Shown here one piece after another: positions 3,082 through 63,681 of a stretch of 64,000 nucleotides of DNA. The notes below the pieces were generated by a model. That model was given only the letters and a program-made list of their open reading frames with translations. It was not told where the DNA came from and did no database searches. Each line of letters starts with the position of its first letter. The stretch's first letter is position 1. The position numbers and the translations under genes were made by a program. Source of the DNA: Candidatus Uhrbacteria bacterium (GTDB lineage Bacteria > Patescibacteriota > Patescibacteriia > UBA9934); contig JABHCP010000007.1 in assembly GCA_018673485.1 (NCBI GenBank), positions 9,890 to 73,889 of the forward strand, in the 5' to 3' direction.

Positions 3082-3110
3082 GAGAAGATCTCTCCTCGAC
3101 GTCGAGATGG
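3082..3110 (+). repeat. short GC-rich repeat module (GAGAAGATCTCTCC-N6-CGTCGAGATGG)
   Basis: 28/29 identical to the right half of the element inserted in the O-antigen ligase gene at 10208..10270 (reverse orientation). Confidence 0.5.
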
Positions 3111-3152
3111 TAATTATTTATCCATTTCGATGCACCGAAGAAATCCTCTAAC

Positions 3153-3242
3153 TTCGATCGAACGTTGAGCTATCTACGGGATCCTTCCTCCTTCGCTAAA
3201 GCTACGGCGGACTTACAGTCGTCGCCTTACTCCTCTGGATGG
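3153..3242 (+). repeat. modular GC-rich repeat (CGATCGAACGTTGAG...GGGATCCTTC...CTCTGGATGG)
   Basis: shares both terminal blocks with the copy at 42684..42761. Confidence 0.45.
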
Positions 3243-3273
3243 TGGTTATTCTGAGTTCTGTATTCTGAGCTCA

Positions 3274-5100
3274 CTATTCCCACCAAGCCTCTAATTCAAT
3301 GTCTGTGTAGAAATACTTCAAAATCTCGTCCCACATGTAATCATCATTTGCCATGTGTAAGGCACCGAGTGCTGACATTCCGATTCCGTGGCCCCAAAGT
3401 ATGCCACCTTCTTCCCATGGGACTTCTACTGACTGGCACCAAGCCTTTGTGCCGTTCCACACTTCATCCCAAGACCGAGTTCGTCCGTCTGAGCGTGAGA
3501 AATACGGTGTAATCGCAAGCTCTCCATTATAGGTCACGATCGTACCCCGAGTATCAACAACCGCTTGCACGATTGTTGGCGAATCCTTCTCGTGCTCGTA
3601 TCCACGATACACCTGATCATCAGCATAAGCATTTACATGCATGAATTCTCCTCTTTCAGAAACCTCATAACGCGAATTTGCATAAGCATATGTCCTTGCT
3701 GCAGTCACTAAAGCTTTTTGATATTCAGCAGGTGACACGTCTGAAGTCTCAGCGAGCCCGTACAAATACTGCTCGATTGGTAATTCATTTATCACCCAAG
3801 TTCTTTCTTTATAGTCGTTATATCTTAACTCTAAAATATTTCGATATGTATTGTTTGCAAATCCTGCATTTCGAGTCTCGCGATAATCAAAGTTAACTAT
3901 CGTCATTACCGCGTTTTCCTCCTCTGGCACCCATCGAAGACCGTATGAAGAAACCTCCTGCCCACGCCCAAGATCAAAATAATATTTACCATCATCATAA
4001 TAACCTGTGACCAACTCTCCAGAGTCCAACTCTGCAAGCAAATTCCCTTGCGTGTCTTCAAGCCGGAAATCTGATTCATACGAAGTAATCACGGTTTCGT
4101 AATCTGTTTCTTCGTCTATGGTTAAAAGACCAACTCTGATAATTGGCTCTTCGTCCAATTGGTAATCGATCATTGCATCATCATCTTCATTATCAACTGT
4201 AGCCTCAGCGCCGCCTGTCACTTCAAATGGCAACTCAATGATTGCATCCTCAATCTGCTCTCCATTGGCTGAAAATTGGAATTCAGCTGTGTGAAAACCA
4301 TTTGTGACTGGTGACATTAAAGCGAAACTTATATAAGCAACTTCGCCGGGTGCCACTGGCTCACTAGCATAAGCAAGTTGAGATCCTGACCACGATGGGT
4401 GTTCAAAACTTACAGCTGACGATGCGTAAGCTACATCCATTTCATTTACTGAATACGATGTCCAGCTCTCTGTCCCAATATTTGTAAATCCAGCGGTCAT
4501 TAATATTGAAACTCCTGCTTTTGCCTTAATTGATTTGGCGCTCAAGATGGTCAACTCTGCCTCAAGCCCACTATCAGCTTCGTTAAGCTCTGTGATTGTT
4601 ATCATCTCCTGCACTTCGCTTGTAACATTAATTGAAAAACTAATCTCTCCTCCATCAACCCACGCAATATCCTCTGACGCTAAATGGAACACCTCCACAT
4701 AATCACCTTCAGTGCTTGGCGCGTGCAATTCGAACATCATACTTGCTGTTTCTCCAGGCACGACCACAGGTTCGATAATTCGTTTAACTTGATCCGGCCC
4801 AAGCCATGTTCCAGGATCAAATGAACTTGATCGATACTTTGGCTCATAAGTATAAAGGGAGATATATCCAGCGCCATCGTTATACCAAGTTAAGTCTCCG
4901 TTATTTAGAAATGTCACGCTAACCTCTTTTACTTCCCCTGGAGACATTGTCAGCTCGCCACTTCCAGAGATTGTGACAGGTACCGCCTCGTAAGATGCGG
5001 CCTGAACTGCAGTTGAGATAAAAAAGAACCCGCAAAGCATTAATGCGGTTAAAATTCCCCACTTTTGTAATACATTCATAGCGTTTTGCATTGGTTTCAT
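3274..5100 (-). CDS. secreted SpoIID/LytB-domain protein with long N-terminal beta-rich region
   Basis: signal peptide; C-terminal SpoIID-like motifs EQYLYGLAE, ALVTAARTYA, TPYFSRSDGRT. Confidence 0.65.
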   Translation of the reverse strand: MKPMQNAMNVLQKWGILTALMLCGFFFISTAVQAASYEAVPVTISGSGELTMSPGEVKEVSVTFLNNGDLTWYNDGAGYISLYTYEPKYRSSSFDPGTWLGPDQVKRIIEPVVVPGETASMMFELHAPSTEGDYVEVFHLASEDIAWVDGGEISFSINVTSEVQEMITITELNEADSGLEAELTILSAKSIKAKAGVSILMTAGFTNIGTESWTSYSVNEMDVAYASSAVSFEHPSWSGSQLAYASEPVAPGEVAYISFALMSPVTNGFHTAEFQFSANGEQIEDAIIELPFEVTGGAEATVDNEDDDAMIDYQLDEEPIIRVGLLTIDEETDYETVITSYESDFRLEDTQGNLLAELDSGELVTGYYDDGKYYFDLGRGQEVSSYGLRWVPEEENAVMTIVNFDYRETRNAGFANNTYRNILELRYNDYKERTWVINELPIEQYLYGLAETSDVSPAEYQKALVTAARTYAYANSRYEVSERGEFMHVNAYADDQVYRGYEHEKDSPTIVQAVVDTRGTIVTYNGELAITPYFSRSDGRTRSWDEVWNGTKAWCQSVEVPWEEGGILWGHGIGMSALGALHMANDDYMWDEILKYFYTDIELEAWWE

Positions 5101-5634
5101 GCAGATTGATTATAGCGCACTCTCGGCGTTGGATAAAATATGTTTTCAACAGGATATTAACAAAACAAGAACCCCCACAACAGCGTAGAGATTCGAGTGT
5201 CAGACCAGTGGCCTGATACACCTCTACGGTGCGGGGGTAGATTGGACGTTGTGGGGCCTAAGGCTCACCCACACCCGTCCGCTATGACACTGGCATGCAT
5301 TCCTCGCTCTATCCCGTTTGACGATTGGGATAGCCAAGGGCGAACATGTTCTCCAGCATCTACAGTGACCGCTTCAAAACCACCTCATGACGACCAGTAA
5401 CGTAGGGCCGCCATGGTGACTAGTGATCATCCACGGTCGTGAAAGGTGTGAAACATTGGATAAGTGAACTAGCCACCAATCCGAGGGCTAAGAAGGCTGT
5501 GTCTGGGGAGCCAAGAACCCAGGAGGAGCGCCCACACAAAGGCTCAACCACAGACACAGATACGTTAGCTTGCTACGAGTCTAGATCATTCCAATCAAGG
5601 AGGCCGTGGCCGTACTTGATCTAGGTCTCGCTTG

Positions 5635-5679
5635 CAAGCAACTGAGAAATGACAGAATCAGCTCTCAGTTAACTGCAAT
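5635..5679 (+). repeat. 45-nt direct repeat copy 1 with internal hairpin AACTGAGA-N15-TCTCAGTT
   Basis: 40/45 identity with 6067..6111. Confidence 0.7.
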
Positions 5680-6066
5680 GTTGAAAGTTATGGCCTGCCG
5701 GGAGCAAGTTTTGAACCAGGGAGCACCCAGTGCCCCCGGTCAGACCAAGAAGTTTTGTGGTGAGACACCAGAGGCGGTGACCACTCTGTGCAAGGAGTAG
5801 CCATCCGCTCTGGTGTCACTTTCGTATAGGTGGGTTGCGATCCACACCTAAACTCAGCTGCAATTACCGCGTCATGCACTCAGCCTCTTGGGGCAAGTGG
5901 TCATCCTTTTCCAGGATAATAGGGGCGTGCACTGATCTCTCCCCATAATGACGAAGTTCGTTCCGACATCTTAGCGCTTGGAGCGCTTTGATGTCCGCTG
6001 TATAGGCCACCACAGGCCTAGGAACTAAGTGAAGTTTGCTCGCAGGACCACTCAGGATCCTACTTA

Positions 6067-6111
6067 CAAGCAACTGAGAAGTGACAGTATCAACTCTCAG
6101 TTGCCTGCAAT
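6067..6111 (+). repeat. 45-nt direct repeat copy 2
   Basis: 40/45 identity with 5635..5679; the same hairpin is retained. Confidence 0.7.
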
Positions 6112-7262
6112 CTTAAACTCCGATTGCTAGCAACGCGCCTATAACAAGCGAGTAACTAATATAAATAATTGTTTCCATATATACACCTCCTAGATTATCA
6201 ATTTCTTAATCTCCTAGCAGGGGTCCCAGGGTTCGACAGATGTCTATTACCTGGGAGTGATGTTGATGCGGCGGACACTTCCGTCCTTGCACCTAGTCAC
6301 TACGACCTTCGGCTTTGCGGCATGATCCGACGCCCTCGCCTGCTGCCGAAGCTTGGCAGGGGAGGTCGTGAACCACACACGCTGGCCCCGAAGAGGCCCG
6401 CACTGACTGGTATCCATAGTATCTCCATGTCAGGGTTGAACAGATTGTATTTCAGGGAACTGGGTCTCTCCTTTCCCAGTTCCCTGGAATAAATCCAGGG
6501 ATCTCTCAGTCTTTTCACAGACAGGTTGATGATTATATTCATAACCCTCCAGATGAACCGTCTCTGTCTCTATATAGCTGCCGAGGCAGCGGTGGTTATC
6601 AGCCGTTCACAACAGGGGTCGAGGTTTTGACGAATCCTCCAGACTCTCATCTGAACGCGCATGGGGGAATACGTCCAGGTGAGAATCAAGTGGATATTGA
6701 AATTGGATCGGGAGAGGAGCTACTGAGAGTGGCTCCTCCCCCGAAACACGATCGTACCTTGGTGAACCTCCGTTTGGACTATGGGGCTCACCAATGACCT
6801 ATCATACCCTCACCAGTACCTATCGCATGCGTTAGCACGCGATACCTAAATGGCTGGCGACAGGTGATATCGGTCTAATGACACTTCAAACTCGATACGT
6901 TAGGACGCAACCGCTGTGTCCAGCAGCAATCTGAATCGAGCTCAAATGGGACATGTCACCTTCCGCAAAACTGCGGTTCCCAGGAATATGGTGTGGTAAA
7001 TCACCTCTCCCTTGTCATCCCTCTGACAAGCTAAAGGAATGGCAAGGATGGTGATTTTTGTTGTTAAGTGCTCACTTGAGGAATCTGCCTCATCAGCGAA
7101 CAAGGAAATCTATCATATCTATCAGAATCTGTCAAGCCCTTGATGTACAAAAAAGGTCATATTTGGGCATAATTGGCTAAAATTAAACAAAAAAAGAACC
7201 AATTTTCATCGGTTCTCCCTGTATAGTTTCAGCTTTATACTTTCAACTTTCTATCCTCCCCC

Positions 7263-7291
7263 TTGACAACCAACCACTTTTCATGTATAGT
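7263..7291 (+). promoter_or_regulatory. sigma70-type promoter (TTGACA-17-TATAGT)
   Basis: perfect -35 hexamer, 17-nt spacer, TATAGT -10; points into 7298..7576. Confidence 0.5.
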
Positions 7292-7535
7292 ACTGGGTCG
7301 TGCTGCAGATCTGCGGCGCGCTACACTAGCGGCCCTGAGCCGCTACATCTCGGAGTCATCATGAACGCGTAACCCCGTTGCGCTGTGAGGACCCAACCCC
7401 ATCCAGCCTGGAAGGTTCACAAGTCAACTGGCCCAACGGCCAGATATCATCGCGAACGCACGCCCCGTGCGTCGTGAATAGGAAGACTTCTGCAACCAAT
7501 CAGGAGGTGTGATGTGGGAGGAGTTTAACCACAGC

Positions 7536-7576
7536 GCGGGCCGTCGACTAACCATCGGCGGCCTTCCTATTTTTTA
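7536..7576. terminator. putative bidirectional intrinsic terminator
   Basis: GGCCGTCGAC...GGCGGCC hairpin followed by TTTTTT on the plus strand; lies immediately 3' of the minus-strand TrmB gene. Confidence 0.4.
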
Positions 7577-9853: not shown

Positions 9854-9982
9854 TGTCACCCCTGGCTCCGACCAGGGGCCCATCAATTATCGATTCATTG
9901 AGCTTGATGTAACGATGGATCCCCCGCCTACCGGCAGGCAGGCTGCTTTCGACCCGTCTGACGGGTTTCGCAGGAATGACAA
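9854..9982 (+). repeat. about 130-nt structured intergenic repeat (copy 1) carrying a nested CCGG-centred palindromic module
   Basis: near-identical to 62653..62775 apart from a 24-nt insert CCCCCGCCTACCGGCAGGCAGG; compensatory hairpins CCCCTGG/CAGGGG versus CCCGGC/GCCGGG. Confidence 0.6.
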
Positions 9983-9988
9983 AATCAT

Positions 9989-11305
9989 ATGACCACGATT
10001 CTTCTAATCATCCTCTTCATCCTTTTCGCACTTTTAGCCAAGCGTAACCTTAAAGCTGCGCTTATTTTGTTATCTGGACTGTTGCCAATATATCTACTTA
10101 GGATCGAGATTGGACCGATACCCTCAACCACGCTCGAAGTATTGATCTTGATTTGTGCTGTTGCCTGGATCATGAACCTTATCCGTCATCCTGATTCCCA
10201 CACCTCACCATCTCGACGTCTAGGAGAGATCTTCTCAAACAAGAAGACTTCTCACTTCGCTCGAAGTGGGGGCATTAAATGGATTCGACCAACCCTACTA
10301 CTCATTGCCGCAGCTAGTTTCGGGGTCGTCGTTGCACCAGACCTTTTTGGAGCACTTGGAATCTGGAAAGCATACTTCATCGAACCAATTCTCGTTGCAA
10401 TAATGATGCTAACGACCTTTAATCGACGTGACTGGACTCGAGCACTGCAAGCTTTGAGTGTTTCAGCGATCGTACTTTCGATATTCGCCATCGTTCAATA
10501 CTGCACCGGCACCGGAATCCCAACTCCATGGGACATAGAGCTTCGAGTGACAAGCTTTTTCGACTACCCCAACGCACTCGGCCTATTCCTAGCACCAATA
10601 GTGTCATTGAATCTTATCTTGTCATTCCTGCGAAAGCAGGAATCCATCATTTTTCGATCGATCTCGATCGTAACAATCATCCTCGGCCTCACAGCAATCA
10701 TCCTCTCCCAAACCGAAGCAGCACTCGTTGCCATCCCAGCCGCCGTGATAATCACACTACTCATTTCAGAAATTTCAAAAAAATCTAAAGTTATTCTACT
10801 GGTCCTATCGGTCCTACTGGTCGCATGCTCACTACTCATCCCTACAGTCCGCGAAAAACTAACCCTCCAAGACTACTCAGGACAAGTTCGAATCTCACAA
10901 TGGACTGAAACGCTCGAGCTCATTAAAGACAAACCATTCTTTGGCGCTGGACTAAACGGATACCCAACAGCGCTCACGCCATATCACAACTCAACACTCT
11001 ACGAAATCTTCCAGTACCCTCACAACATAATCCTAAACACCTGGACCGAACTCGGACTCCTCGGCCTAATCGCATTATTCTGGTTTGCATATCTAATCCT
11101 AAAACAAACCATCTCGACGCCCAGGAGAGATTCTCTCAAGAAGACTTCTCCTGACGTCGAAGTGGGTATACTACAACTCGCCCTCTTTGCAGCACTCCTC
11201 ACGATCCTCATCCACGGCCTGGTCGATGTCCCCTATTTCAAAAACGACCTTGCAGTCATGACATGGATACTGTTCGCTGGATACATCGCCATTAAAAGAA
11301 AATGA
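9989..11305 (+). CDS. O-antigen ligase/polymerase family membrane protein (Wzy_C domain)
   Basis: 438 aa polytopic protein; C-terminal block GAGLNGYPTALTPYHNS...HNIILNTWTELGLLGLI typical of Wzy_C. Confidence 0.75.
   Translation: MTTILLIILFILFALLAKRNLKAALILLSGLLPIYLLRIEIGPIPSTTLEVLILICAVAWIMNLIRHPDSHTSPSRRLGEIFSNKKTSHFARSGGIKWIRPTLLLIAAASFGVVVAPDLFGALGIWKAYFIEPILVAIMMLTTFNRRDWTRALQALSVSAIVLSIFAIVQYCTGTGIPTPWDIELRVTSFFDYPNALGLFLAPIVSLNLILSFLRKQESIIFRSISIVTIILGLTAIILSQTEAALVAIPAAVIITLLISEISKKSKVILLVLSVLLVACSLLIPTVREKLTLQDYSGQVRISQWTETLELIKDKPFFGAGLNGYPTALTPYHNSTLYEIFQYPHNIILNTWTELGLLGLIALFWFAYLILKQTISTPRRDSLKKTSPDVEVGILQLALFAALLTILIHGLVDVPYFKNDLAVMTWILFAGYIAIKRK
10208..10270 (-). mobile_element. 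63-bp MITE-like GC-rich element inserted in frame in the O-antigen ligase ORF
   Basis: imperfect TIRs CCCACTTCGA / TCGAGATGG; internal half 28/29 identical to the intergenic copy at 3082..3110; encodes the extra peptide SPSRRLGEIFSNKKTSHFARSGG. Confidence 0.5.
11109..11166 (-). mobile_element. 58-bp MITE-like element, second in-frame copy in the same ORF
   Basis: same termini and internal GAGAAGTCTTCTTG core as 10208..10270; encodes TPRRDSLKKTSPDVEVG. Confidence 0.5.
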
Positions 11306-11345
11306 ACCAACAGCCTTGACAAAAGGCTGTTTTGGGTTTAAATAG

Positions 11346-12146
11346 ATGCGTCCACTCTTGGGCCCCAACAACGGAGAGCACATGACAATTCGCCCCCTCC
11401 CCTGCGCTGATGACAACGTGAAAGCATTGGTATCACCCTTCAAACTGAGTGAGGTGGTAGTCACCTCGCCTGATGATCGCCGGCGAGCCGTTGAGTACAT
11501 GGCCTTCTGGTTTGGCCAGGACGAGCACATGAACCAGTTCTTTGGAGCCCTATGCAAACATGGAACTCCGGAACAGCAAGCGTCTGCACGTCGCGCCATC
11601 TTTGACATCTTCCTCGACGACGCACTCAAGTGCGCCTACCTGCGTAGCTTGGACGGTGAACGCACCGCATGCGAAAGCTGGTGGACGTACATGTACCCAA
11701 AAACGATCCGCGAAGACCTTGAAGAAACTGCTCAGCAAGTAGCTCGTGGATTCGAAGCTATCGGCTGGGCCAAACTCTTCTACGGTTTCCAGGTACTGAT
11801 GGCTGTCAAAAACCACGCTGTACCCAAAATTGATGGAGCGATGATCCCGCACCTTCAACTCAGCAATATCGCAACCGTTGAGGACCTCCGTGGAAGAAAG
11901 CACGCGACAGCTCACATCGTAGCGGTCTGCCGCGTCGCTGATGACCTCAACCTGCCAATTGCGCTGTGCTATGCGCGCCCCGACAATGCCACGTTTTACG
12001 CGAAGTTTGGATTCGAGGACAAGGAACGCATTCCAAAGCTGCCTGACAAATGCCCGTTCTACAACTGGATGTTGCGCATACCAGAGTCGGGACCAGGTGG
12101 TCACACAATGCACATCTGGCGAGCACGCAGACTCCTGCAAGCCTAG
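11346..12146 (+). CDS. hypothetical protein, possibly GNAT-fold, in a high-GC cassette
   Basis: 266 aa; C-terminal NATFYAKFGFED resembles the GNAT motif; about 57% GC; flanked by a promoter-hairpin and a terminator repeat. Confidence 0.45.
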   Translation: MRPLLGPNNGEHMTIRPLPCADDNVKALVSPFKLSEVVVTSPDDRRRAVEYMAFWFGQDEHMNQFFGALCKHGTPEQQASARRAIFDIFLDDALKCAYLRSLDGERTACESWWTYMYPKTIREDLEETAQQVARGFEAIGWAKLFYGFQVLMAVKNHAVPKIDGAMIPHLQLSNIATVEDLRGRKHATAHIVAVCRVADDLNLPIALCYARPDNATFYAKFGFEDKERIPKLPDKCPFYNWMLRIPESGPGGHTMHIWRARRLLQA

Positions 12147-12336: not shown

Positions 12337-12738
12337 ATGAGTCGCAGCTTCGCAGAAGTCCGCCAAGCGGCACCACCGATCCACGCCTTTGTGCCGGCGC
12401 ACAAAACCTTAGTGGATAAAATGATGGGCACCGTGACTGGCGACAAAGTCACGATCCTCGAGCCCAACACCATCGACGAACAGTATAGCGACACGCCTTT
12501 CGGTAGTGATGCTGCTACGAGCTATGTCGCGGGTGACGGCAATCGCAAAACCCCATACACCCTCAAAAGTGCGGCGCCAATGTCTGCACACTACGGTATG
12601 GTTGGCCTATGGTGGCTCTTCCAACTCAGCCTGCGCTCATGCAAGCGTCCGGTGTACATCAAGGTCAACGATTGGATCTTCGAGATCACTCCCGAAGGCG
12701 TCATCGCCCTCGACGGTACACTCACGAAGCTCATCTGA
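12337..12738 (+). CDS. hypothetical protein in a high-GC cassette
   Basis: 133 aa; preceded by the same AGCCTTGACAAAAGGCTGTTTT element and followed by the same GCGGGTTTCAC-CTTGCAA-ATTAGTTA terminator repeat as the previous ORF. Confidence 0.45.
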   Translation: MSRSFAEVRQAAPPIHAFVPAHKTLVDKMMGTVTGDKVTILEPNTIDEQYSDTPFGSDAATSYVAGDGNRKTPYTLKSAAPMSAHYGMVGLWWLFQLSLRSCKRPVYIKVNDWIFEITPEGVIALDGTLTKLI

Positions 12739-20393: not shown

Positions 20394-20774
20394 CTAACCA
20401 GCGAGGCCTGCAGTGGTCAGTGACGTAATCACGAAGTTTGAAATCGCGTACGCTGCCAAAAGGATAATTAATCCGATTACAGCATTGATCATGATGTCCT
20501 TTGCCTTTTGAGTCTTGTCTGACTCACCACCGGCTGTCATCCACAAGAATCCTGCGTAGATAACAAGAACTAGCAAGATGATTCCCAATAGAGTAAGGAA
20601 AACTTTGATCAGGTCTCCGATCGTCGCGGCAAGTGGCTCGTCTGAGAACTCTGCAGCTAAAGCTGCACTATCAAGCTCAGTACTAATGTCCTGTGCGTGA
20701 ACTGGTGCTGCAAGCATTGGAACTGACAACAGTCCGATTGCGAGCAATGCGCCTAGTTTTTTGAGATATCCCAT
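20394..20774 (-). CDS. TrbC/VirB2-family pilin-like protein (paralog 1)
   Basis: Sec signal ending AHAQ; two C-terminal TM helices with the loop IYAGFLWMTAGGESDKTQKAKD. Confidence 0.7.
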   Translation of the reverse strand: MGYLKKLGALLAIGLLSVPMLAAPVHAQDISTELDSAALAAEFSDEPLAATIGDLIKVFLTLLGIILLVLVIYAGFLWMTAGGESDKTQKAKDIMINAVIGLIILLAAYAISNFVITSLTTAGLAG

Positions 20775-20836
20775 AGTAATAAATTAATAACTCTTTTAAT
20801 TAGTAATCTTATTTTAACATTTTTTGTAATCCTACG

Positions 20837-21190
20837 CTATATAGCCAACTGTATAGAATCGATAACGAAATTCGAAATTGCATACGCTGCCAATAGGATA
20901 ATTAGTCCAATCACGGCATTGATCATGAAATCTTTTGCCTTCTTAGTCTTATCCGTCTCACCACCAGCTGTCATCCACAGGAATCCTGCGTAGATCATTA
21001 TCAACAATAATATTATACCGAGTATCGAAAGCGCAACACCGATTATACCACCAATCATTACTGGCAAAGTAGCCTCTGAGAACCCGACTTGACCCTGCGC
21101 ATCGTCAACTTGGCTAGTGAAATCAAGCGCCCAAACAGTCACGGGGCTCGCCAGCACCAAACAAACAATTGAAAAAACTAACTTCTTCAT
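20837..21190 (-). CDS. TrbC/VirB2-family pilin-like protein (paralog 2)
   Basis: start taken at MKKLVFS; IYAGFLWMTAGGETDKTKKAKD loop. Confidence 0.7.
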   Translation of the reverse strand: MKKLVFSIVCLVLASPVTVWALDFTSQVDDAQGQVGFSEATLPVMIGGIIGVALSILGIILLLIMIYAGFLWMTAGGETDKTKKAKDFMINAVIGLIILLAAYAISNFVIDSIQLAI

Positions 21191-21555
21191 AATGATGGGG
21201 CGTTGAGCGCTGTAAAGATGTATGTCGTAATGGCGTATGCTGCTGTGATAATTATTACACCGATCACAGCACGAATCATTAAGTCTTTTGCTTTTTGAAC
21301 TTGATCGGAGGCTCCACCGGCTGTCATCCATAGGAATCCCGCGTATACCATCAGTACCAAAAAGATCAGACCAACGAGCGCTAATGCTGGGGTAATAATC
21401 TTAGTTCCAACCCATTGACCAAGAGTTTGATCAAGAGTTCCATAAACCTCGGCACCTGTAGCATCCAAGCCAGTTTCGGATGGATCTAGCTGCGCAAAGA
21501 CAAGTGTGGGGCCAAGAAGCAGCGCAACGGCTGCAAGGGCGATGTATTTTCGCAT
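21187..21555 (-). CDS. TrbC/VirB2-family pilin-like protein (paralog 3)
   Basis: start taken at MRKYIAL; VYAGFLWMTAGGASDQVQKAKD loop. Confidence 0.7.
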   Translation of the reverse strand: MRKYIALAAVALLLGPTLVFAQLDPSETGLDATGAEVYGTLDQTLGQWVGTKIITPALALVGLIFLVLMVYAGFLWMTAGGASDQVQKAKDLMIRAVIGVIIITAAYAITTYIFTALNAPSL

Positions 21556-21601
21556 AGCCAAGTGCCAGCACGTATGTGCTGGCAAAAGGTCATAAGAAAA
21601 T

Positions 21602-22006
21602 TTAACCAGCTGAGGCGGTAATCACGGAATCGATCACAAAACTTGTAATCGCAAACGCTGACAAGATAATCGCCAGTCCGATAACACCAGCAATTAAGAG
21701 TCGTTTCGCTTCCGAGACTTTGTCTTCGTTTCCACTTGCTGTCATCCACTTAAATCCACCCAAGAGAACCATTACTACTGCAATAATTCCAAGGAATCCA
21801 AGGAAAACGCGAATAAGATTCCCAATAGTCTCTTTTAGGTTGGCTTGTCCGAGCCCTGAACTATCTGAAAAATCGTCATCAAAGAAATCTGAAGTATCAA
21901 GTTGCTGTGCGTGAGCAACAGGAACGTTTGTAGCGAAAGTCATTGTTCCCAACAGAGGGATCGCTACTAAGAAACTAAGTGCGAATAGTGATAGCGCTTT
22001 TGTCAT
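21602..22006 (-). CDS. TrbC/VirB2-family pilin-like protein (paralog 4)
   Basis: signal peptide; LLGGFKWMTASGNEDKVSEAKR loop. Confidence 0.65.
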   Translation of the reverse strand: MTKALSLFALSFLVAIPLLGTMTFATNVPVAHAQQLDTSDFFDDDFSDSSGLGQANLKETIGNLIRVFLGFLGIIAVVMVLLGGFKWMTASGNEDKVSEAKRLLIAGVIGLAIILSAFAITSFVIDSVITASAG

Positions 22007-22058
22007 AGTGTTTTATGATTAATAATATTAAATAGTTGAATCGCTCGATTATATCTCG

Positions 22059-22126
22059 CTTGTTGAAGATGTTTAAGTTGTTTATTTCAGAGTAAACACT
22101 TTAAACACCTTCAACAATTTAAACAT
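22059..22126. promoter_or_regulatory. conserved upstream element, copy 2
   Basis: shares the GTTTAYTTCRGARTAAACACTTTAAACA core with 16841..16889. Confidence 0.5.
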
Positions 22127-22132
22127 CAGCTC

Positions 22133-22468
22133 TTAGACGCTTCCAGTCAGAACTGCGCTGAAGATTGCGTCTGTTAAAACATACGCTCCAGCAATCAGGA
22201 TGATCCCCAGAGTCGCCCAAACCAAAATGTCCTTTCCCTTTTTCACCTGATCTCCTTTTCCCATGTCTGTAAGCCACAGGATGCCACCATATACAAACAT
22301 CAGAAGCGCCAATGTTCCGGCAACGGACAATGCGCCGCTAATAACTGTTCCGATGATCACTCGTACATCGTTCTCACCCAAAGGATTAGTAAGAGTGACC
22401 TGAGCTTGTGCTATATATGGCATAGCCAGCGCTCCTACACTCACGATAATAGCCTTAATCTTTTTCAT
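22133..22468 (-). CDS. TrbC/VirB2-family pilin-like protein (paralog 5)
   Basis: signal peptide AQAQ; VYGGILWLTDMGKGDQVKKGKD loop. Confidence 0.65.
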   Translation of the reverse strand: MKKIKAIIVSVGALAMPYIAQAQVTLTNPLGENDVRVIIGTVISGALSVAGTLALLMFVYGGILWLTDMGKGDQVKKGKDILVWATLGIILIAGAYVLTDAIFSAVLTGSV

Positions 22469-22491
22469 AGAAATATTATATCAAGATTTTT

Positions 22492-22992
22492 CTATTGCGT
22501 CTGAATGATATCCGCAGCCCCGGCGCCATCTACTGCATTATCGATTGTATCTTCAATATCCGTCGTTGGAATCTCTCCAGTTGTAATAACAGAAACGACA
22601 ACGTTAATAACGGCATATGCACCCATAATAATCGCCAATCCCACCAAGGCTCCGATAATCGCCTTCTTTCCTTCGTCCACCATTCCAGCTTCACCATGGG
22701 CTAGAATCCACTTCATACCTCCATAAACTAAAATGAACATCATCACAGAACCAGTGATTCCAAAGATGAAAACGCTCAAATTAACTAAAAGCTGCATCAT
22801 GTCCTCGAGCGTACACTTACCATGGTCTCTGCATTCGCACGCTGCACTCGCGCTTGAACAAATACCGGCAAAGATAAGTCCCTGATCTTGAATCTCGGCA
22901 TACCTACCTGCGATTGATTGAGCCTGAACACTAGGCACAAAAACACCCAGCATCGCAAAGGACAATAAAAATGTTAATGCATACTTTTTCAT
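22492..22992 (-). CDS. TrbC/VirB2-family pilin-like protein with Cys-rich insert (paralog 6)
   Basis: signal peptide VQAQ; CSSASAACECRDHGKC insert; VYGGMKWILAHGEAGMVDEGKK loop. Confidence 0.6.
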   Translation of the reverse strand: MKKYALTFLLSFAMLGVFVPSVQAQSIAGRYAEIQDQGLIFAGICSSASAACECRDHGKCTLEDMMQLLVNLSVFIFGITGSVMMFILVYGGMKWILAHGEAGMVDEGKKAIIGALVGLAIIMGAYAVINVVVSVITTGEIPTTDIEDTIDNAVDGAGAADIIQTQ

Positions 22993-25986: not shown

Positions 25987-26027
25987 GCCCCTCCCCCTTT
26001 TTCCTCAAGGGGGAGCTGGAGGGGGTT
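25987..26027. repeat. GC-rich palindromic repeat (CTCCCCCTT-N-AAGGGGGAG-CTRGAGGGGGTT family)
   Basis: related copies at 43092..43152, 44206..44239, 46746..46777, 60269..60349. Confidence 0.6.
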
Positions 26028-27210: not shown

Positions 27211-27227
27211 ACCTGTTTAATAAATCA

Positions 27228-27267
27228 CGGTTTCACTAATTGAACGATCGTTCAATTAGTGAAACCG
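27228..27267. repeat. 40-bp perfect palindrome centred on CGATCG
   Basis: CGGTTTCACTAATTGAACGATCGTTCAATTAGTGAAACCG, 3' of iscS. Confidence 0.8.
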
Positions 27268-27285
27268 TCCGATCTTCGTAATATG

Positions 27286-28498: not shown

Positions 28499-28538
28499 AT
28501 GTTTCACATATTGGACGATCGTCAACATTGTGAAACAT
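28499..28538. repeat. 40-bp near-palindrome centred on CGATCG (GTTTCAC arms)
   Basis: ATGTTTCACATATTGGACGATCGTCAACATTGTGAAACAT immediately 5' of iscS; shares GTTTCAC...GTGAAAC arms with 27228..27267. Confidence 0.7.
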
Positions 28539-29481: not shown

Positions 29482-29536
29482 TAGTAGATCTCTCGTCGCT
29501 CCGACCCGTCAGACGGGTCTTCGCTCCTCGAGATGG
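29482..29536 (+). repeat. modular GC-rich repeat (TAGTAGATCTCTC...hairpin...CTCGAGATGG)
   Basis: termini as at 63653..63681; inner hairpin CGACCCGTCAGACGGGTC as in 9854..9982. Confidence 0.5.
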
Positions 29537-34619: not shown

Positions 34620-34784
34620 ATATATTGTTTATTACTGAGTACATCTTAGCATTTCATGTTAAACAAAAAAAGACCCACACCACACCCATCCCGACGTAAG
34701 GAGGGATCCCTCGGCATACGCCTCGGGATGGAGGGAATGGTGGACTAAACAAAAAATCCCGCCACATGGCGAGATTTTTTTATT

Positions 34785-42647: not shown

Positions 42648-42683
42648 GAAAAAAACACCCATCTCGAGGAGTCCAAAGACGAC

Positions 42684-42761
42684 GAGAGATCCCGTGCGTA
42701 ACCGATCGAACGTTGAGATAGCGGTGGGATCCTTCGGCCCGTCGGACGGGCCTCTGGATGG
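42684..42761 (+). repeat. modular GC-rich repeat (copy of 3153..3242 type)
   Basis: CGATCGAACGTTGAGATA...GGGATCCTTC-hairpin-CTCTGGATGG. Confidence 0.45.
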
Positions 42762-44193: not shown

Positions 44194-44205
44194 ATAGCGT
44201 TCAGT

Positions 44206-44239
44206 CCTCCCCCTTCCCAAGGGGGAGCTAGAGGGGGTT
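44206..44239. repeat. GC-rich palindromic repeat CCTCCCCCTTCCCAAGGGGGAGCTAGAGGGGGTT
   Basis: member of the family listed at 25987..26027. Confidence 0.6.
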
Positions 44240-44380
44240 GCCATTGAGTAAATAAAATCAGGAGACATTCCTCCTGTTTCCGATTGCATTGTATCAAGTT
44301 ATTGCTAGTTTGATCAAAAAGGTTTCACTAAGGTCCCGATCGGCCCTTTAGTGAAACCTTCTTGACGTCGACGGCTTGGC

Positions 44381-45656: not shown

Positions 45657-45885
45657 ACTTAACAGCTTTTTTCTTCCCCCTCTCTCAACCCCCATCAAAC
45701 CTGAAGGACTCCCATGTCCAACTCACGGTTTGTGGGGGGTTCTTCTTTTATAGAAAAAATAGACAACTTACCGCTTAGATGGCCCTGTGTTTTTTTTCTA
45801 TCCATTCGATGTTCGATCGGACATTTTATGAATTTATCAAAATTGCTTTTGAGGCTGATTTAAAGACTGCGTTTAGAGATATCAA

Positions 45886-45921
45886 TTTTCATAATACGTT
45901 CGATCGAACGTATTATGAAAA
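45886..45921. repeat. 36-bp perfect palindrome centred on CGATCG
   Basis: TTTTCATAATACGTTCGATCGAACGTATTATGAAAA; a degenerate relative at 45806..45826. Confidence 0.8.
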
Positions 45922-45982
45922 TAAAGCATCAACGCCCCACTCGTTGTACGAGTTGGGGCGTAGTTGATTGCGCACGAGGGCG

Positions 45983-48385: not shown

Positions 48386-48922
48386 ATGAGTGTTCCAATG
48401 ATCGGTGATAGCGGTGTGCTCCTGCAGGTTTCAACGATGAGGGCCAATGCTGTCATGCGACTTCTGAGTATGGAGTGCTTCCGTGTAGTGCCCTTCCTGA
48501 TCGATGCTCGTGAGGAGTTCCGTCCCAGCGACTGGTTTAGGACCATCGGTGAGTTCCATGAGTGGGTCATGCAGAGTTCAGAGACGCAGTTTGCTGACAA
48601 GCTCCGTGCGGCATGGGGACAGATCGAAGCGGATCTATATGCCAGAAATATCCCAGCTAACCTTGAAGTTGTGGCCAACCGCATTCGAGCGTTCAAGCTG
48701 CCTAAGGGTACGGAGCGGATTGAATGGTCCCGGGATGGCAAGAACATTGTCATTGAAATCAACGACTGGCATGACGAATTCGATAGCTTGGAACGCTTCC
48801 TGGAACTTCTTGCAAAAGATGCTTGGCGATCGAACGATGACGTACATGCGCATAGCGTCATCCGGCTCGCTCAAGAACTCCTCGCGCTCGACAACTTCCC
48901 GATCCGTAGACCTACCGACTAG
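48386..48922 (+). CDS. hypothetical protein (178 aa) in a high-GC islet
   Basis: the plus-strand ORF has a normal composition; the overlapping minus ORF is a Ser/Arg-rich artefact. Confidence 0.5.
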   Translation: MSVPMIGDSGVLLQVSTMRANAVMRLLSMECFRVVPFLIDAREEFRPSDWFRTIGEFHEWVMQSSETQFADKLRAAWGQIEADLYARNIPANLEVVANRIRAFKLPKGTERIEWSRDGKNIVIEINDWHDEFDSLERFLELLAKDAWRSNDDVHAHSVIRLAQELLALDNFPIRRPTD

Positions 48923-48927
48923 GTAGG

Positions 48928-48947
48928 CTGAGTTCGATCGAACTCAG
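48928..48947. repeat. 20-bp perfect palindrome CTGAGTTCGATCGAACTCAG
   Basis: CGATCG-centred family; immediately after the 48922 stop. Confidence 0.7.
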
Positions 48948-48949
48948 CG

Positions 48950-48986
48950 TCCCCGCGCCCACTCGGCGCGGGGTTCTTGTTTTTTA
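48950..48986 (+). terminator. intrinsic terminator
   Basis: CCCCGCGCC-CACT-GGCGCGGGG followed by TTCTTGTTTTTT. Confidence 0.65.
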
Positions 48987-52672: not shown

Positions 52673-52710
52673 ATTTTCATGATAGGTTCGATCGAACCTA
52701 TCATGAAAAT
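52673..52710. repeat. 38-bp perfect palindrome centred on CGATCG
   Basis: ATTTTCATGATAGGTTCGATCGAACCTATCATGAAAAT abutting the stop codon of 52710..53252. Confidence 0.8.
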
Positions 52711-57516: not shown

Positions 57517-57580
57517 TCAAGTGAACTCACACATAGTCGCTTTTGAGTTGATTCTAAAGACCATATTTATGAACGCCAAT

Positions 57581-57614
57581 GTTCGCGTTAGGTTCGATCG
57601 AACCTAACGCGAAC
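57581..57614. repeat. 34-bp perfect palindrome GTTCGCGTTAGGTTCGATCGAACCTAACGCGAAC
   Basis: CGATCG-centred family; shares the TAGGTTCGATCGAACCTA core with 52673..52710. Confidence 0.8.
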
Positions 57615-57639
57615 AGAAGATGCTCGCATTGGAATTTAA

Positions 57640-60268: not shown

Positions 60269-60349
60269 ACCTCCCCCTGCCCCTCCTTCGTAAGGAGGGG
60301 AGATTCGATCGAGATCCTCCCCCTTACGAAGGGGGAGATAGAGGGGGTC
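60269..60349. repeat. tandem GC-rich palindromic repeats
   Basis: CCTCCCCCTGCCCCTCCTTCGTAAGGAGGGG...CCTCCCCCTTACGAAGGGGGAGATAGAGGGGGTC in the pnp leader. Confidence 0.6.
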
Positions 60350-62652: not shown

Positions 62653-62775
62653 CTGTCATCCCGGCCGTAGAGCCGGGATCCATCGAGATGCAGAATTCGA
62701 TCGAACTGAATCGAGCTTGATGTAACGATGGGTTCCTGCTTTCGACCCGTCTGACGGGTTTCGCAGGAATGACAA
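62653..62775 (+). repeat. about 125-nt structured intergenic repeat (copy 2, without the nested module)
   Basis: see 9854..9982. Confidence 0.6.
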
Positions 62776-62840: not shown

Positions 62841-63068
62841 CTACTTTGCGCTGCCAAGTTGCTTGGCTGCGATGTGGCTTCCATGCGAGGCCTTATGCTC
62901 TAGTTCGCTTTGTGAGCTTGGATCGCCTTGAGTGCCAATGATCGCGAAGCCTACCATGATGGCCAAGATGGCGATCAAGATGAGAAAGTCGGGCCCCGCC
63001 TGACCGTCTTCTTCTCTTTCACCAATAGCACGGTTGAGTTTGGTGTTAGTAGTCCCGAGCATATTCAC
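62841..63068 (-). CDS. small single-TM hypothetical protein
   Basis: 75-aa ORF in a high-GC islet. Confidence 0.4.
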   Translation of the reverse strand: MNMLGTTNTKLNRAIGEREEDGQAGPDFLILIAILAIMVGFAIIGTQGDPSSQSELEHKASHGSHIAAKQLGSAK

Positions 63069-63571
63069 TTCCTCCAGATGAGTAGCTCACCGTTGTGTGC
63101 TGTCAGGAGCTGGGCAGGGCCGATGCAGTTGGGCTGCTCAGCGCAGACTTCAACTACGTGGCCAAAGTTGGCGTCGACCCAGAAGTTGAGTATCTGAGTA
63201 GCGAATTCGACTTCTTCACAGGTCATGATTGGCGTATTGCGCTTTTCCTTGAGGTCTGGAATTCCGCGGCATCCCATCTTGGCCCCGGTATCGATGCTTT
63301 CATCGAGCGGGTCATCGAGATATCCGCAGAGCAGCATCATGTCGAGTGCTCTTGCGTGGCCGTTGCTGAACTCCATGTAGGCTAGGTGGACGTCACACTC
63401 CTCGACAGGTTCGACCTGGTCGCTCTGTTTTGAAGCTGATGTCTTCGTACTCCATTTTTCGATAAAGCCTGGCACTACGAGTGCGGCGAGGATACCGAGA
63501 AGTGCGGCGATGATTGCAACGTTGAGCAGTGTTTGATTGACCGGTGTCTCGCTGGGGTTTGTGGGTTGCAT
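63065..63571 (-). CDS. hypothetical membrane-anchored protein
   Basis: N-terminal hydrophobic helix; Cys-containing C-terminal domain; 168 aa. Confidence 0.45.
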   Translation of the reverse strand: MQPTNPSETPVNQTLLNVAIIAALLGILAALVVPGFIEKWSTKTSASKQSDQVEPVEECDVHLAYMEFSNGHARALDMMLLCGYLDDPLDESIDTGAKMGCRGIPDLKEKRNTPIMTCEEVEFATQILNFWVDANFGHVVEVCAEQPNCIGPAQLLTAHNGELLIWRK

Positions 63572-63652: not shown

Positions 63653-63681
63653 TAGTAGATCTCTCCTAGGCGTCGAGATGG
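63653..63681 (+). repeat. short GC-rich repeat module TAGTAGATCTCTCCTAGGCGTCGAGATGG
   Basis: matches 3082..3110 and the internal halves of the intragenic elements at 10208 and 11109. Confidence 0.5.

What the first reader, a model, noticed from the sequence alone, without database searches (positions are those of the whole stretch)
10208..11166. Two copies of a 58-63-bp MITE-like GC-rich element inserted in frame inside the O-antigen ligase gene
The ORF 9989..11305 carries two similar elements in the same orientation, at 10208-10270 and 11109-11166. In reverse-complement they share the consensus CCCACTTCGA..GAGAAGTCTTCTTG..CTCTCCT-NNN-CGTCGAGATGG, with imperfect terminal inverted repeats. The internal half of copy 1 is 28/29 identical to an intergenic copy at 3082-3110 and close to 63653-63681. 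Despite the insertions the reading frame stays open, adding peptides SPSRRLGEIFSNKKTSHFARSGG and TPRRDSLKKTSPDVEVG in predicted loops. This is analogous to Rickettsia palindromic elements that colonise coding sequences.
Basis: partly seen in the sequence, partly recalled or inferred. Interest (0 to 1): 0.75.

Follow-up and report, generated by a model that had tools for sequence, protein, structure and literature searches.

The report
Hairpin repeats translated inside ligase gene
Two copies of a small selfish hairpin-forming DNA repeat sit in frame inside a cell-surface sugar-ligase gene of a tiny "candidate phyla" bacterium and add two extra protein loops; units of the same design closely bracket all eight small GIY-YIG nuclease genes examined, in several bacterial lineages.

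Summary
ORF 9989..11305 is a Wzy_C/WaaL-type ligase of a Patescibacteria (Uhrbacteria-like) genome. It carries two 63- and 58-nt hairpin elements, 53/64 aligned columns identical, read in different frames at their 5' ends. A shared 23-nt motif occurs 4 times in the window (0 expected).

Both are lineage-specific loop insertions. Site 1 is 40 aa against a median of 20 in 116 homologues. Site 2 is 49 aa against 36. One close orthologue has ancestral length at site 2, and others carry different hairpins there. AlphaFold confidence dips only at the two inserts.

The "imperfect TIRs" are better described another way. Each element is an inverted doublet of a ~24-nt unit, CCA-N3-CGA...G-N3'-TC. The internal 5-bp stem of the unit covaries: 30/33 perfect pairs over five N3 types. 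This is REPIN-like, with no target-site duplications. Singlet units and longer relatives bring the window total to at least eight elements, all others intergenic.

The copies in the gene are 93% identical to those of a 78%-identical orthologue, against 75% for the rest of the gene. This suggests gene conversion or nucleotide-level constraint.

Unexpectedly, units of this design tightly bracket all 8 stand-alone GIY-YIG nuclease genes examined, in 7 loci from several lineages. The nuclease is a candidate mobilising enzyme (inferred). In kind this resembles Rickettsia palindromic elements, but it is unrelated to them in sequence.

The parts
9989..11305 (+). Host gene: Wzy_C / O-antigen-ligase (WaaL-like) family membrane protein, 438 aa, intact
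   Evidence: Pfam PF04932 E 2.3e-20. 2288 homologues, mostly Patescibacteria. AlphaFold mean pLDDT 92.2. Best PDB fold match is WaaL 7tpg_B, E 7.9e-07.
10208..10270 (+). Element copy 1 (63 nt doublet), translated as residues 74-94 (PSRRLGEIFSNKKTSHFARSG)
   Evidence: The loop is 40 aa against a median of 20 in homologues. pLDDT is 60-61 in blocks 71-90.
10208..10231 (+). Unit A of copy 1: CCATCTCGACGTCTAGGAGAGATC (stem ATCTC/GAGAT)
   Evidence: Unit scan; covariation
10246..10269 (-). Unit B of copy 1, inverted: CCACTTCGAGCGAAGTGAGAAGTC (stem ACTTC/GAAGT)
11109..11166 (+). Element copy 2 (58 nt doublet), translated as residues 374-393 (ISTPRRDSLKKTSPDVEVG)
   Evidence: The loop is 49 aa against 36 in 78/116 homologues. 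pLDDT is 72-83 in blocks 371-390. Site 2 has ancestral length in orthologue L013.
11109..11132 (+). Unit A of copy 2: CCATCTCGACGCCCAGGAGAGATT (stem ATCTC/GAGAT)
11143..11165 (-). Unit B of copy 2, inverted: CCACTTCGACGTCAGGAGAAGTC (stem ACTTC/GAAGT)
10621..10644 (+). Third hairpin in the same gene, GTCATTCCTGCGAAAGCAGGAATC (stem ATTCC/GGAAT). Same unit design but different tip. It adds no loop length.
   Evidence: GTCATTCCTGCGAAA also occurs at 9966-9980(-) and 62759-62773(-).
3087..3110 (-). Intergenic singlet unit, 28/29 identical to unit A of copy 1. It ends about 20 nt upstream of the start codon (3067) of the D-Ala-D-Ala carboxypeptidase gene.
3122..3245 (+). Long degenerate relative next to the singlet (unit CCATTTCGATGCACCGAAGAAATC at 3122-3145, then ...CTCTGGATGG)
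   Evidence: It shares a 33-nt core with 42703-42735 (family D17).
29487..29536 (-). Intergenic unit with an internal GACCCGTCTGACGGGTC hairpin module
34686..34731 (+). Short intergenic doublet of the TCC/GGA type (CCATCCCGACGTAAGGAGGGATC plus an inverted unit)
42659..42757 (+). Long intergenic relative between the convergent rnpA and DUF167 genes
63658..63681 (-). Intergenic singlet unit upstream of ORF 63065..63571(-)

Best explanation
The two segments are in-frame copies of a dispersed, non-coding hairpin repeat. They are translated.

Shown: each copy is an inverted doublet of a ~24-nt unit, (C/T)CA-N3-CGA-[5-12-nt loop]-G-N3'-TC. The unit carries its own 5-bp stem, and the doublet as a whole folds as a long hairpin. 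Units also occur as singlets and as longer mosaics, mostly between genes, in this genome and in related Uhrbacteria/Patescibacteria.

Shown: two doublets lie in loop-coding parts of the WaaL-like ligase gene. They persist because short variants have open reading frames in two of the three sense frames and because the loops tolerate extra residues. They lengthen two inter-helix loops by about 20 and 13 residues without disturbing the predicted fold.

Inferred: the affected loops lie on the cytoplasmic face of the protein.

Inferred: the copies are kept similar to other genomic copies by gene conversion, or by a constraint on the hairpin itself, not by selection on the peptide.

Inferred, weaker: the family spreads or is homogenised through a small stand-alone GIY-YIG nuclease. 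Genes for this nuclease are bracketed by the same units in every locus examined.
For: Repeat family is real. The motif occurs 4 times against 0 expected. The unit scan finds 10 units in the window against 0.7 in shuffles. The exact motif was found in only two GTDB species genomes, one titled Candidatus Uhrbacteria (UBA12070) and one Patescibacteria group (KR13_N2.mb.36), and in 26 metagenome loci.

DNA-level similarity. The copies are read in different frames. At site 1 the orthologues P0004-P0006 read the 5' half in the other frame (HPDTRRDLL).

Insertions. Loop-length statistics support insertion. Site 2 has ancestral length in L013, a deleted derivative is present in L015, and different hairpins occupy it in L010, L014 and L011. 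The only pLDDT dips fall at residues 61-100 and 371-390.

A further independent coding insertion exists. L003 ORF 4077..5768(-) reads ISTPRRDLFKSE, the same frame as copy 2.

Unit stem. RNAalifold finds ATCTC/GAGAT with compensatory changes. Among sites that were not used to fetch the loci, 34 are matched against 4.7 +/- 2.0 after permutation. Of 33 pyrimidine-N3 sites, 30 pair perfectly over five N3 types. All 15 elements tested fold as hairpins, 14 of them with z between -2.0 and -8.3 and one (the P0002 site-1 copy) at z -0.87.

Nucleotide conservation. Window against P0001: 63/68 and 56/60 identical inside the elements, against 842/1127 in the rest of the gene and 198/376 at third codon positions. 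Fisher p = 4.6e-7.

Concerted evolution. The window's site-1 copy and the copy 7 kb away upstream of the peptidase gene share GTC where other copies have GCC, and both lack a 27-nt module. In P0001's genome both orthologous copies carry that module.

GIY-YIG link. All 8 genes in 7 loci have a same-orientation unit 8-90 nt upstream. All 7 with downstream sequence have a unit 0-12 nt after the stop codon. Units cluster within 500 nt of the gene: 7/8, 17/18 and 4/4, 9/13 in L050 and 4/4 variant units in L049. The lineages named by source records are Uhrbacteria, Ignavibacteria, Syntrophaceae, Melioribacteraceae and Gudongella.
Against: No transposition event or target-site duplication was observed. 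Ancestral-length and filled sites were compared between orthologues 63-78% identical to the window protein, so exact insertion boundaries cannot be defined.

Translation of the inserts is inferred from the open frame and the conserved gene. No transcript or peptide data were available.

No GIY-YIG gene is present in the 64-kb window or in the fetched loci of the three closest relatives. The nuclease might simply prefer to insert into repeat clusters.

The covariation counts are inflated by shared ancestry of subfamilies.

The cytoplasmic location of the loops rests on the positive-inside rule and on the published WaaL topology (my own knowledge). It was not computed here.
Confidence: 0.8

Rival explanations
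1. Classical MITE. On this reading the element is a deletion derivative of an insertion sequence. A DDE-type transposase acting in trans recognises its terminal inverted repeats and creates target-site duplications.
For: The outer arms are inverted repeats, CCATCTCGACG / CGTCGAAGTGG, with 10 of 11 positions pairing. The element is small, non-coding, multi-copy and dispersed.
Against: No target-site duplication is seen at nine full copies. The arms mismatch exactly where each unit's own internal stem is perfect. Singlet units exist on their own. No transposase was found among the 38 window ORFs scanned with Pfam, apart from a XerC/D-like recombinase; about 20 further ORFs of 100 aa or more were not scanned. 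No plasmid match was found.
Confidence: 0.08
2. Functional cis-element. On this reading the hairpins are kept in the ligase mRNA or DNA because they do something there, for example bind a protein, pause translation between transmembrane segments or set mRNA stability. The extra peptide would be a by-product.
For: The elements are 93% identical between orthologues whose remaining sequence is 75% identical and whose third codon positions are 53% identical. The unit stem covaries. Intergenic singlets often lie just upstream of genes in the same orientation.
Against: Close orthologues differ at these sites. One has ancestral length at site 2, one carries a deleted copy, and three carry unrelated hairpins at the same site. 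The frame of the peptide differs between lineages. Most family members sit in varied intergenic contexts. No Rfam family matches. Gene conversion explains the conservation equally well.
Confidence: 0.1
3. Intervening sequence. On this reading the segments are removed from the RNA or bypassed by the ribosome, as with the translational-bypass 'byp' elements of yeast mitochondria (comparison from my own knowledge). They would then not be part of the protein.
For: Strong hairpins of -27 kcal/mol lie within coding sequence.
Against: In this gene the copies keep an open frame, and the only frames used are the two that are open in most of the shorter family members. Intergenic copies, including the longest ones, often carry stops in all frames, which points to selection for translatability. 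No ribozyme or intron family matches.
Confidence: 0.02
4. Protein-level duplication, low-complexity drift or chance resemblance of two loops.
For: Both segments lie in hypervariable loops.
Against: The 5' ends are read in different frames although the DNA is 83% identical. The motif is found 4 times against 0 expected. The same DNA occurs in intergenic regions of several genomes.
Confidence: 0.005

Closest known systems
Rickettsia palindromic elements (RPE; Ogata et al. 2000, as summarised in PMC10969869)
   Same: Both are short palindromic selfish repeats found between genes and also inserted in frame into unrelated protein-coding genes. The ORF stays open and the insert adds a surface or loop peptide compatible with the fold.
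   Different: RPEs are about 100-150 bp, are specific to Rickettsia, and each family encodes a conserved peptide. The elements here are 58-63 bp, come from Patescibacteria, are read in different frames in different copies, and match no NCBIfam model at E<=1 (that RPE domain models are held in that library is my own knowledge). No unit-doublet design or nuclease partner is known to me for RPEs.
REP / REPIN elements with RAYT transposases (comparison from my own knowledge of the Bertels & Rainey and Nunvar descriptions)
   Same: Both have a short hairpin unit, inverted doublets that fold as a long hairpin, singlets and clusters in alternating orientation, no target-site duplication, and a small nuclease-type gene flanked by its own repeats.
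   Different: The flanked gene here is a 95-aa GIY-YIG nuclease, not an HUH/Y1 RAYT. No conserved GTAG tetranucleotide is present. REPs are typically extragenic, whereas two doublets here are translated.
Bacterial MITEs found inside genes (ERIC, BOX, QMITE1, Correia; review PMC10969869)
   Same: Both are small non-autonomous repeats with inverted ends that sometimes create in-frame fusions.
   Different: Those elements have recognisable IS parents or target-site duplications. Here no duplication is seen and the ends are hairpin units with covarying stems.
Mobile GC clusters and 'byp' elements of yeast mitochondrial genes (my own knowledge)
   Same: Both are short hairpin-forming mobile inserts inside coding sequence.
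   Different: Byp elements are skipped by the ribosome. Here the frame is kept open, so translation is the simpler reading.

Membership tests
MITE | Terminal inverted repeats | tested here: met
   The arms CCATCTCGACG / CGTCGAAGTGG pair at 10 of 11 positions. The mismatches are explained by the two units having different N3 triplets.
MITE | Target-site duplication flanking each copy | tested here: not met
   No direct repeat flanks nine full copies. The flanks only extend the palindrome, TCC...GGA.
MITE | Small, non-coding, multi-copy and dispersed | tested here: met
   Elements are 50-125 nt. At least 8 lie in the window, with more in related genomes.
MITE | Autonomous parent element with the same ends | tested here: inconclusive
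   GIY-YIG genes are bracketed by the units in 8 of 8 cases. That enzyme is not a known transposase, and none lies in the window.
Rickettsia palindromic elements (RPE) | Sequence membership in an RPE family or RPE peptide domain | tested here: not met
   An NCBIfam scan of the whole protein and of both insert peptides at E<=1 returned no RPE model; the two insert peptides matched no family at all. That RPE domain models are held in that library is my own knowledge. There is no Rfam match.
Rickettsia palindromic elements (RPE) | In-frame insertion into functional ORFs with the fold preserved | tested here: met
   The ORF is open, all invariant residues of the family are kept, mean pLDDT is 92, and confidence dips only at the inserts.
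Rickettsia palindromic elements (RPE) | Host lineage Rickettsia; size about 100-150 bp | tested here: not met
   The host is Patescibacteria/Uhrbacteria. The elements are 58-63 bp.
REP/REPIN-RAYT | Short hairpin unit maintained by compensatory change | tested here: met
   The 5-bp stem A-N3-C / G-N3'-T pairs perfectly in 30 of 33 sites over 5 types. Matched sites number 34 against 4.7 after permutation.
REP/REPIN-RAYT | Inverted doublets (REPINs) as well as singlets and clusters | tested here: met
   Clusters occur in L003, L004 and L007.
REP/REPIN-RAYT | Associated RAYT (HUH Y1 transposase) flanked by its REPs | tested here: not met
   No RAYT was seen in the loci or in the 38 window ORFs scanned with Pfam; about 20 further ORFs of 100 aa or more were not scanned. 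The repeat-flanked gene is a GIY-YIG nuclease. The whole genome of the window organism could not be searched.
REP/REPIN-RAYT | Extragenic location | tested here: not met
   This fails for the two copies in question, which lie inside a coding sequence. Most other copies are intergenic.
Wzy_C / O-antigen ligase (host gene) | Pfam PF04932 domain and WaaL-like fold | tested here: met
   PF04932 E 2.3e-20. Foldseek best match 7tpg_B, E 7.9e-07, TM 0.63-0.68. The ligated substrate is unknown.

The most novel reading that the evidence does not exclude
The hairpin units may be the non-autonomous partners of a previously undescribed mobile element found across phyla. Its autonomous form would be about 400 bp: unit, then a 95-aa GIY-YIG nuclease gene, then a second unit. 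This would be a GIY-YIG counterpart of the REPIN-RAYT relationship.

Nuclease-triggered repair would copy units into new sites, including tolerant loop-coding DNA. It would also keep dispersed copies homogenised. That would explain why the copies in the gene are better conserved than the gene around them.
Probability: 0.35. Interest if true: 0.8.

Novelty: new variant of a known kind. Interest (0 to 1): 0.62.

Why it matters
Candidate-phyla-radiation bacteria have very small genomes (my own knowledge), so selfish repeats that reach into coding sequence, and are then translated, are noteworthy there. This is a clean example, supported by orthologue comparison, of proteins gaining loop segments from selfish DNA outside Rickettsia.

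The same three loops of this ligase family vary widely in length among its homologues and carry different inserts in the closest orthologues. They look like natural insertion-tolerant sites.

The unit-doublet design and its tight association with small GIY-YIG nuclease genes suggest a testable mechanism. These repeats are rarely discussed (no paper found in the library searched), and units of the same design, with different tips and N3 types, flank GIY-YIG genes in loci from several other lineages. I found no paper describing the association.

Tried and rejected
- Rfam: the gathering scan of the window found only a tRNA. E-value scans of 9900-11400 and of six GIY-YIG loci found nothing.
- blastn of copy 1 against PLSDB plasmids: no match.
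- Motif scan of viral contigs: 0 hits.
- Target-site duplications were looked for by eye at nine full copies. None was found.
- L002 4215 first looked like a coding copy inside a 611-aa open frame. It is intergenic, between the ribosomal protein S16 gene and a 547-aa gene on the other strand.
- L031 is a chance hit of the motif in an unrelated high-GC contig.
- RNAalifold on nine doublets did not return the long hairpin. It returned the unit-level stem, which led to the covariation analysis.
- My first covariation script used the wrong partner pattern and found nothing. It was corrected.
- A protein search with the element-encoded peptide failed. The query was first too short, and the 43-aa version then found no candidate sharing three words.
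- tblastn with the GIY-YIG protein against the window and loci L001-L041 hit only L003/L024.
- NCBIfam found no RPE domain.
Full report
**What is there.**
The window is a roughly 46% GC stretch of a Patescibacteria (Candidatus Uhrbacteria-like) genome. The closest proteins and the only genomes sharing the motif carry those names. ORF 9989..11305 (+, 438 aa) is a Wzy_C/O-antigen-ligase family protein: PF04932, E 2.3e-20. It lies next to a Polysacc_synt flippase-like gene, and this gene order is conserved in six relatives. An AlphaFold model built on 117 sequences has mean pLDDT 92.2. Its best solved match is the WaaL ligase 7tpg_B (E 7.9e-07, TM 0.63-0.68).

**Checking the observation.**
The 23-nt motif CCATCTCGACGNCNAGGAGAGAT occurs four times in the window against none expected. 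The sites are the two gene copies plus 3110(-) and 63681(-). Both gene copies fold as long hairpins, at -26.7 and -27.3 kcal/mol with z -4.3 and -5.1.

The shared motif starts at codon offset 0 in copy 1 and offset 1 in copy 2. One copy is read PSRRLGE.. and the other ISTPRRD... The frames meet at KKTS after small indels and part again at the 3' end. The resemblance is therefore in the DNA, not the protein. GC content is only mildly raised: 49% and 55% against 46%. An independent metagenome contig (L017) reproduces the copy-2 region exactly.

**Are they insertions?**
I measured loop lengths between invariant anchors in 116 homologues. Site 1 has a median of 20 residues (query 40). Site 2 has exactly 36 residues in 78 of 116 (query 49).

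I then aligned the DNA of six syntenic orthologues (63-78% protein identity to the window protein). Site 2 has ancestral length in L013. The same element is present in L008. A deleted derivative is present in L015. A different C/G-rich hairpin occupies the site in L010 and L014, and that family also occurs intergenically in the window at 25993, 44205 and 60315. A third kind of hairpin occupies it in L011.

Site 1 carries the element in all seven genes, but the 5' half is read in the other frame in three of them. A third loop (window 10621-10644) holds a perfect hairpin of related design. In L008 and L011 that loop holds a half-element of the family under study.

The only confidence dips in the AlphaFold model are at residues 61-100 (60-83) and 371-390 (72-83), which are the two inserts. 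By parity from the conserved periplasmic loop, the basic residues in the loops and the published WaaL topology, I infer that all three loops face the cytoplasm. This was not computed.

**The family.**
The exact motif occurs in only two GTDB species genomes, one titled Candidatus Uhrbacteria and one Patescibacteria group. A slightly degenerate pattern found 26 metagenome loci, many of them duplicates and two of them fragments of the window's own genome. Most copies are intergenic and often form clusters.

One further independent coding copy lies in a 563-aa membrane protein of UBA12070. It reads ISTPRRDLFKSE, the same frame as copy 2. One apparent coding copy, in L002, turned out to be intergenic.

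Most of the shorter elements are open in sense frames +1 and +3, whereas the two longest carry stops in all six frames. The gene copies use exactly those two open frames. This fits selection filtering insertions for translatability.

**Anatomy.**
Full elements from different genomes have different interiors, yet all fold as hairpins; 14 of 15 have z between -2.0 and -8.3 (the P0002 site-1 copy, which carries a 21-nt extra insert, has z -0.87). RNAalifold on nine of them returned a local 5-bp stem inside the 5' module, ATCTC...GAGAT, with compensatory variants, not the long hairpin.

Listing every CCANNNCGA site in all fetched DNA showed the rule. The unit is (C/T)CA-N3-CGA, a 5-12-nt loop, then G-N3'-TC, where N3' is the complement of N3.

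I excluded the sites that had been used to fetch the loci. Of the rest, 34 have the matching partner, against 4.7 +/- 2.0 (maximum 13 in 2000) when N3 is permuted among sites. Among pyrimidine-N3 sites, 30 of 33 pair perfectly across five types: TCT/AGA, TTT/AAA, TCC/GGA, CTT/AAG and CCT/AGG. Shared ancestry of subfamilies inflates these counts. Even so, five matched types require the stem to be maintained.

Each gene copy is an inverted pair of such units, TCT-type on the + strand and CTT-type on the - strand. This is why the outer 'inverted repeats' are imperfect while each unit is internally perfect. With this definition the window holds 10 units against 0.7 expected, in at least eight elements. 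Only the two in the ligase gene are in coding sequence. No target-site duplication is visible at nine full copies.

**Conservation.**
Between the window and its 78%-identical orthologue, the elements are 63/68 and 56/60 identical. The rest of the gene is 842/1127 identical, and third codon positions are 198/376 identical. Fisher p = 4.6e-7.

Loops that are hypervariable across the family are thus among the best conserved DNA of the gene. The peptide frame is not conserved, so the constraint is on nucleic acid.

Two characters point to gene conversion. The window's site-1 copy and the singlet 7 kb away share GTC where others have GCC, and both lack a 27-nt module. In the orthologue's genome both corresponding copies carry that module, which also occurs in a UBA12070 copy. 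Selection on the hairpin itself is not excluded.

**An unexpected partner.**
In UBA12070 a 96-aa GIY-YIG nuclease gene (PF01541, E 7.5e-14) sits inside a cluster of these units. It is flanked by 154-nt direct repeats made of them. The protein family is large and crosses phyla: 2878 hits at E<1e-10, many on very short contigs.

I fetched six more loci from lineages that source records name as Ignavibacteria, Syntrophaceae, Melioribacteraceae and Gudongella, plus two unnamed ones. In all 8 genes a same-orientation unit lies 8-90 nt upstream. In all 7 with downstream sequence a unit starts 0-12 nt after the stop codon, inverted in four cases.

Units concentrate within 500 nt of the gene: 7/8, 17/18 and 4/4, 9/13 in L050 and 4/4 variant units in L049. 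Outside the CPR the tip is GTCA instead of CCCA, but the core is the same. An example is GTCATTTCGAGCGAAGCGAGAAATC, with further matched N3 types TGT, TAT, TTC and CTC.

The arrangement unit-gene-inverted unit looks like an autonomous element, with the short doublets as its empty derivatives. Alternatively, the nuclease gene may simply home into repeat clusters. No such gene lies in the window or in the fetched loci of the closest relatives. I found no paper on this association or on the unit sequence, and no Rfam family.

**Comparison with known systems.**
As a phenomenon this is what Rickettsia palindromic elements are known for (review PMC10969869). It is not an RPE by sequence, size or host. 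In design it is closest to REP/REPIN elements, but the repeat-flanked gene is GIY-YIG rather than a RAYT, and two doublets are translated. It fails the MITE criterion of target-site duplication.

**Verdict.**
The finding is a real, lineage-specific, in-frame colonisation of a membrane-protein gene by a hairpin repeat. Its anatomy is refined here to a unit doublet. Conservation at the nucleotide level remains unexplained. The nuclease partner is a plausible but unproven addition.

Noticed in passing
window 5101-7566: A 2.4-kb stretch between the SpoIID-like and TrmB-like genes has only one ORF of 100 aa or more (6169..6492, 107 aa). It aligns with the syntenic gaps of L008 and L011 at 69% column identity, with long near-invariant blocks. 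That is better conserved than the neighbouring coding DNA. It contains paired 55-nt hairpin repeats at 5631-5685 and 6063-6117. It is a candidate large structured non-coding RNA. Rfam finds nothing there.
   Followed up: partly
L003 3461-3748 (-), flanks 3301-3454 and 3892-4045: A stand-alone 96-aa GIY-YIG nuclease gene is embedded in a cluster of the same hairpin units and flanked by 154-nt direct repeats (97% identical). The same bracketing by units was seen for all 8 GIY-YIG genes examined, in 7 loci from several lineages.
   Followed up: partly
window 10621-10644; also 9966-9980(-) and 62759-62773(-): A third perfect hairpin, GTCATTCCTGCGAAAGCAGGAATC, lies inside the ligase gene and is read as SFLRKQESI. 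Its first 15 nt recur in a 40-nt exact repeat, at 9943-9982 just upstream of the ligase start and at 62736-62775. That repeat also holds a GACCCGTCTGACGGGTC hairpin.
   Followed up: partly
window 25993-26026, 44205-44238, 60315-60348: A second repeat family, TCCTCCCCCTTCCCAAGGGGGAGCTAGAGGGGGT, occurs at these sites. The same family occupies ligase site 2, in frame (PPSQGGAGGG / PPFKGGVGGG), in orthologues P0002 and P0005. One loop has therefore been colonised by different repeat families in sister lineages.
   Followed up: partly
window 27227-27268, 28499-28538, 44314-44365, 45885-45922, 52673-52710, 57580-57615, 48922-48953: Long perfect or near-perfect palindromes (38-42 nt) centred on TTCGATCGAA or ACGATCGT lie in the gaps between the long ORFs listed. 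Some have GTTTCAC...GTGAAAC arms. The same CGATCG centre occurs inside several long members of the hairpin-unit family. Their function is unknown.
   Followed up: no
A3 alignment: P0107, P0097, P0078, P0087, P0043, P0048: More distant CPR ligase homologues have expanded loops at the same three sites. Their peptides include TTKQSPEGLPRFARNDN, ESKQSLVGLLRRFTPRKDN and SLLAMT. These are compatible, by back-translation only, with other N3 types of the same unit (TCATTGCGA..GCAATC). This would mean repeated independent in-frame colonisation.
   Followed up: no
window 20394-22992 and L011 18161-20884: A cluster of five or six small paralogous T4SS_pilin-like genes (PF18895) includes a 222-nt internal repeat (20428-20649 and 20862-21083, 73% identical). 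The cluster is conserved in a relative.
   Followed up: no
window 11346-12146 and 12337-12738: The ORFs just downstream of the ligase have no Pfam match and are not syntenic. In relatives their place is taken by radical-SAM and methyltransferase genes or by other ORFs. The 3' flank of the ligase gene is thus a variable region.
   Followed up: no
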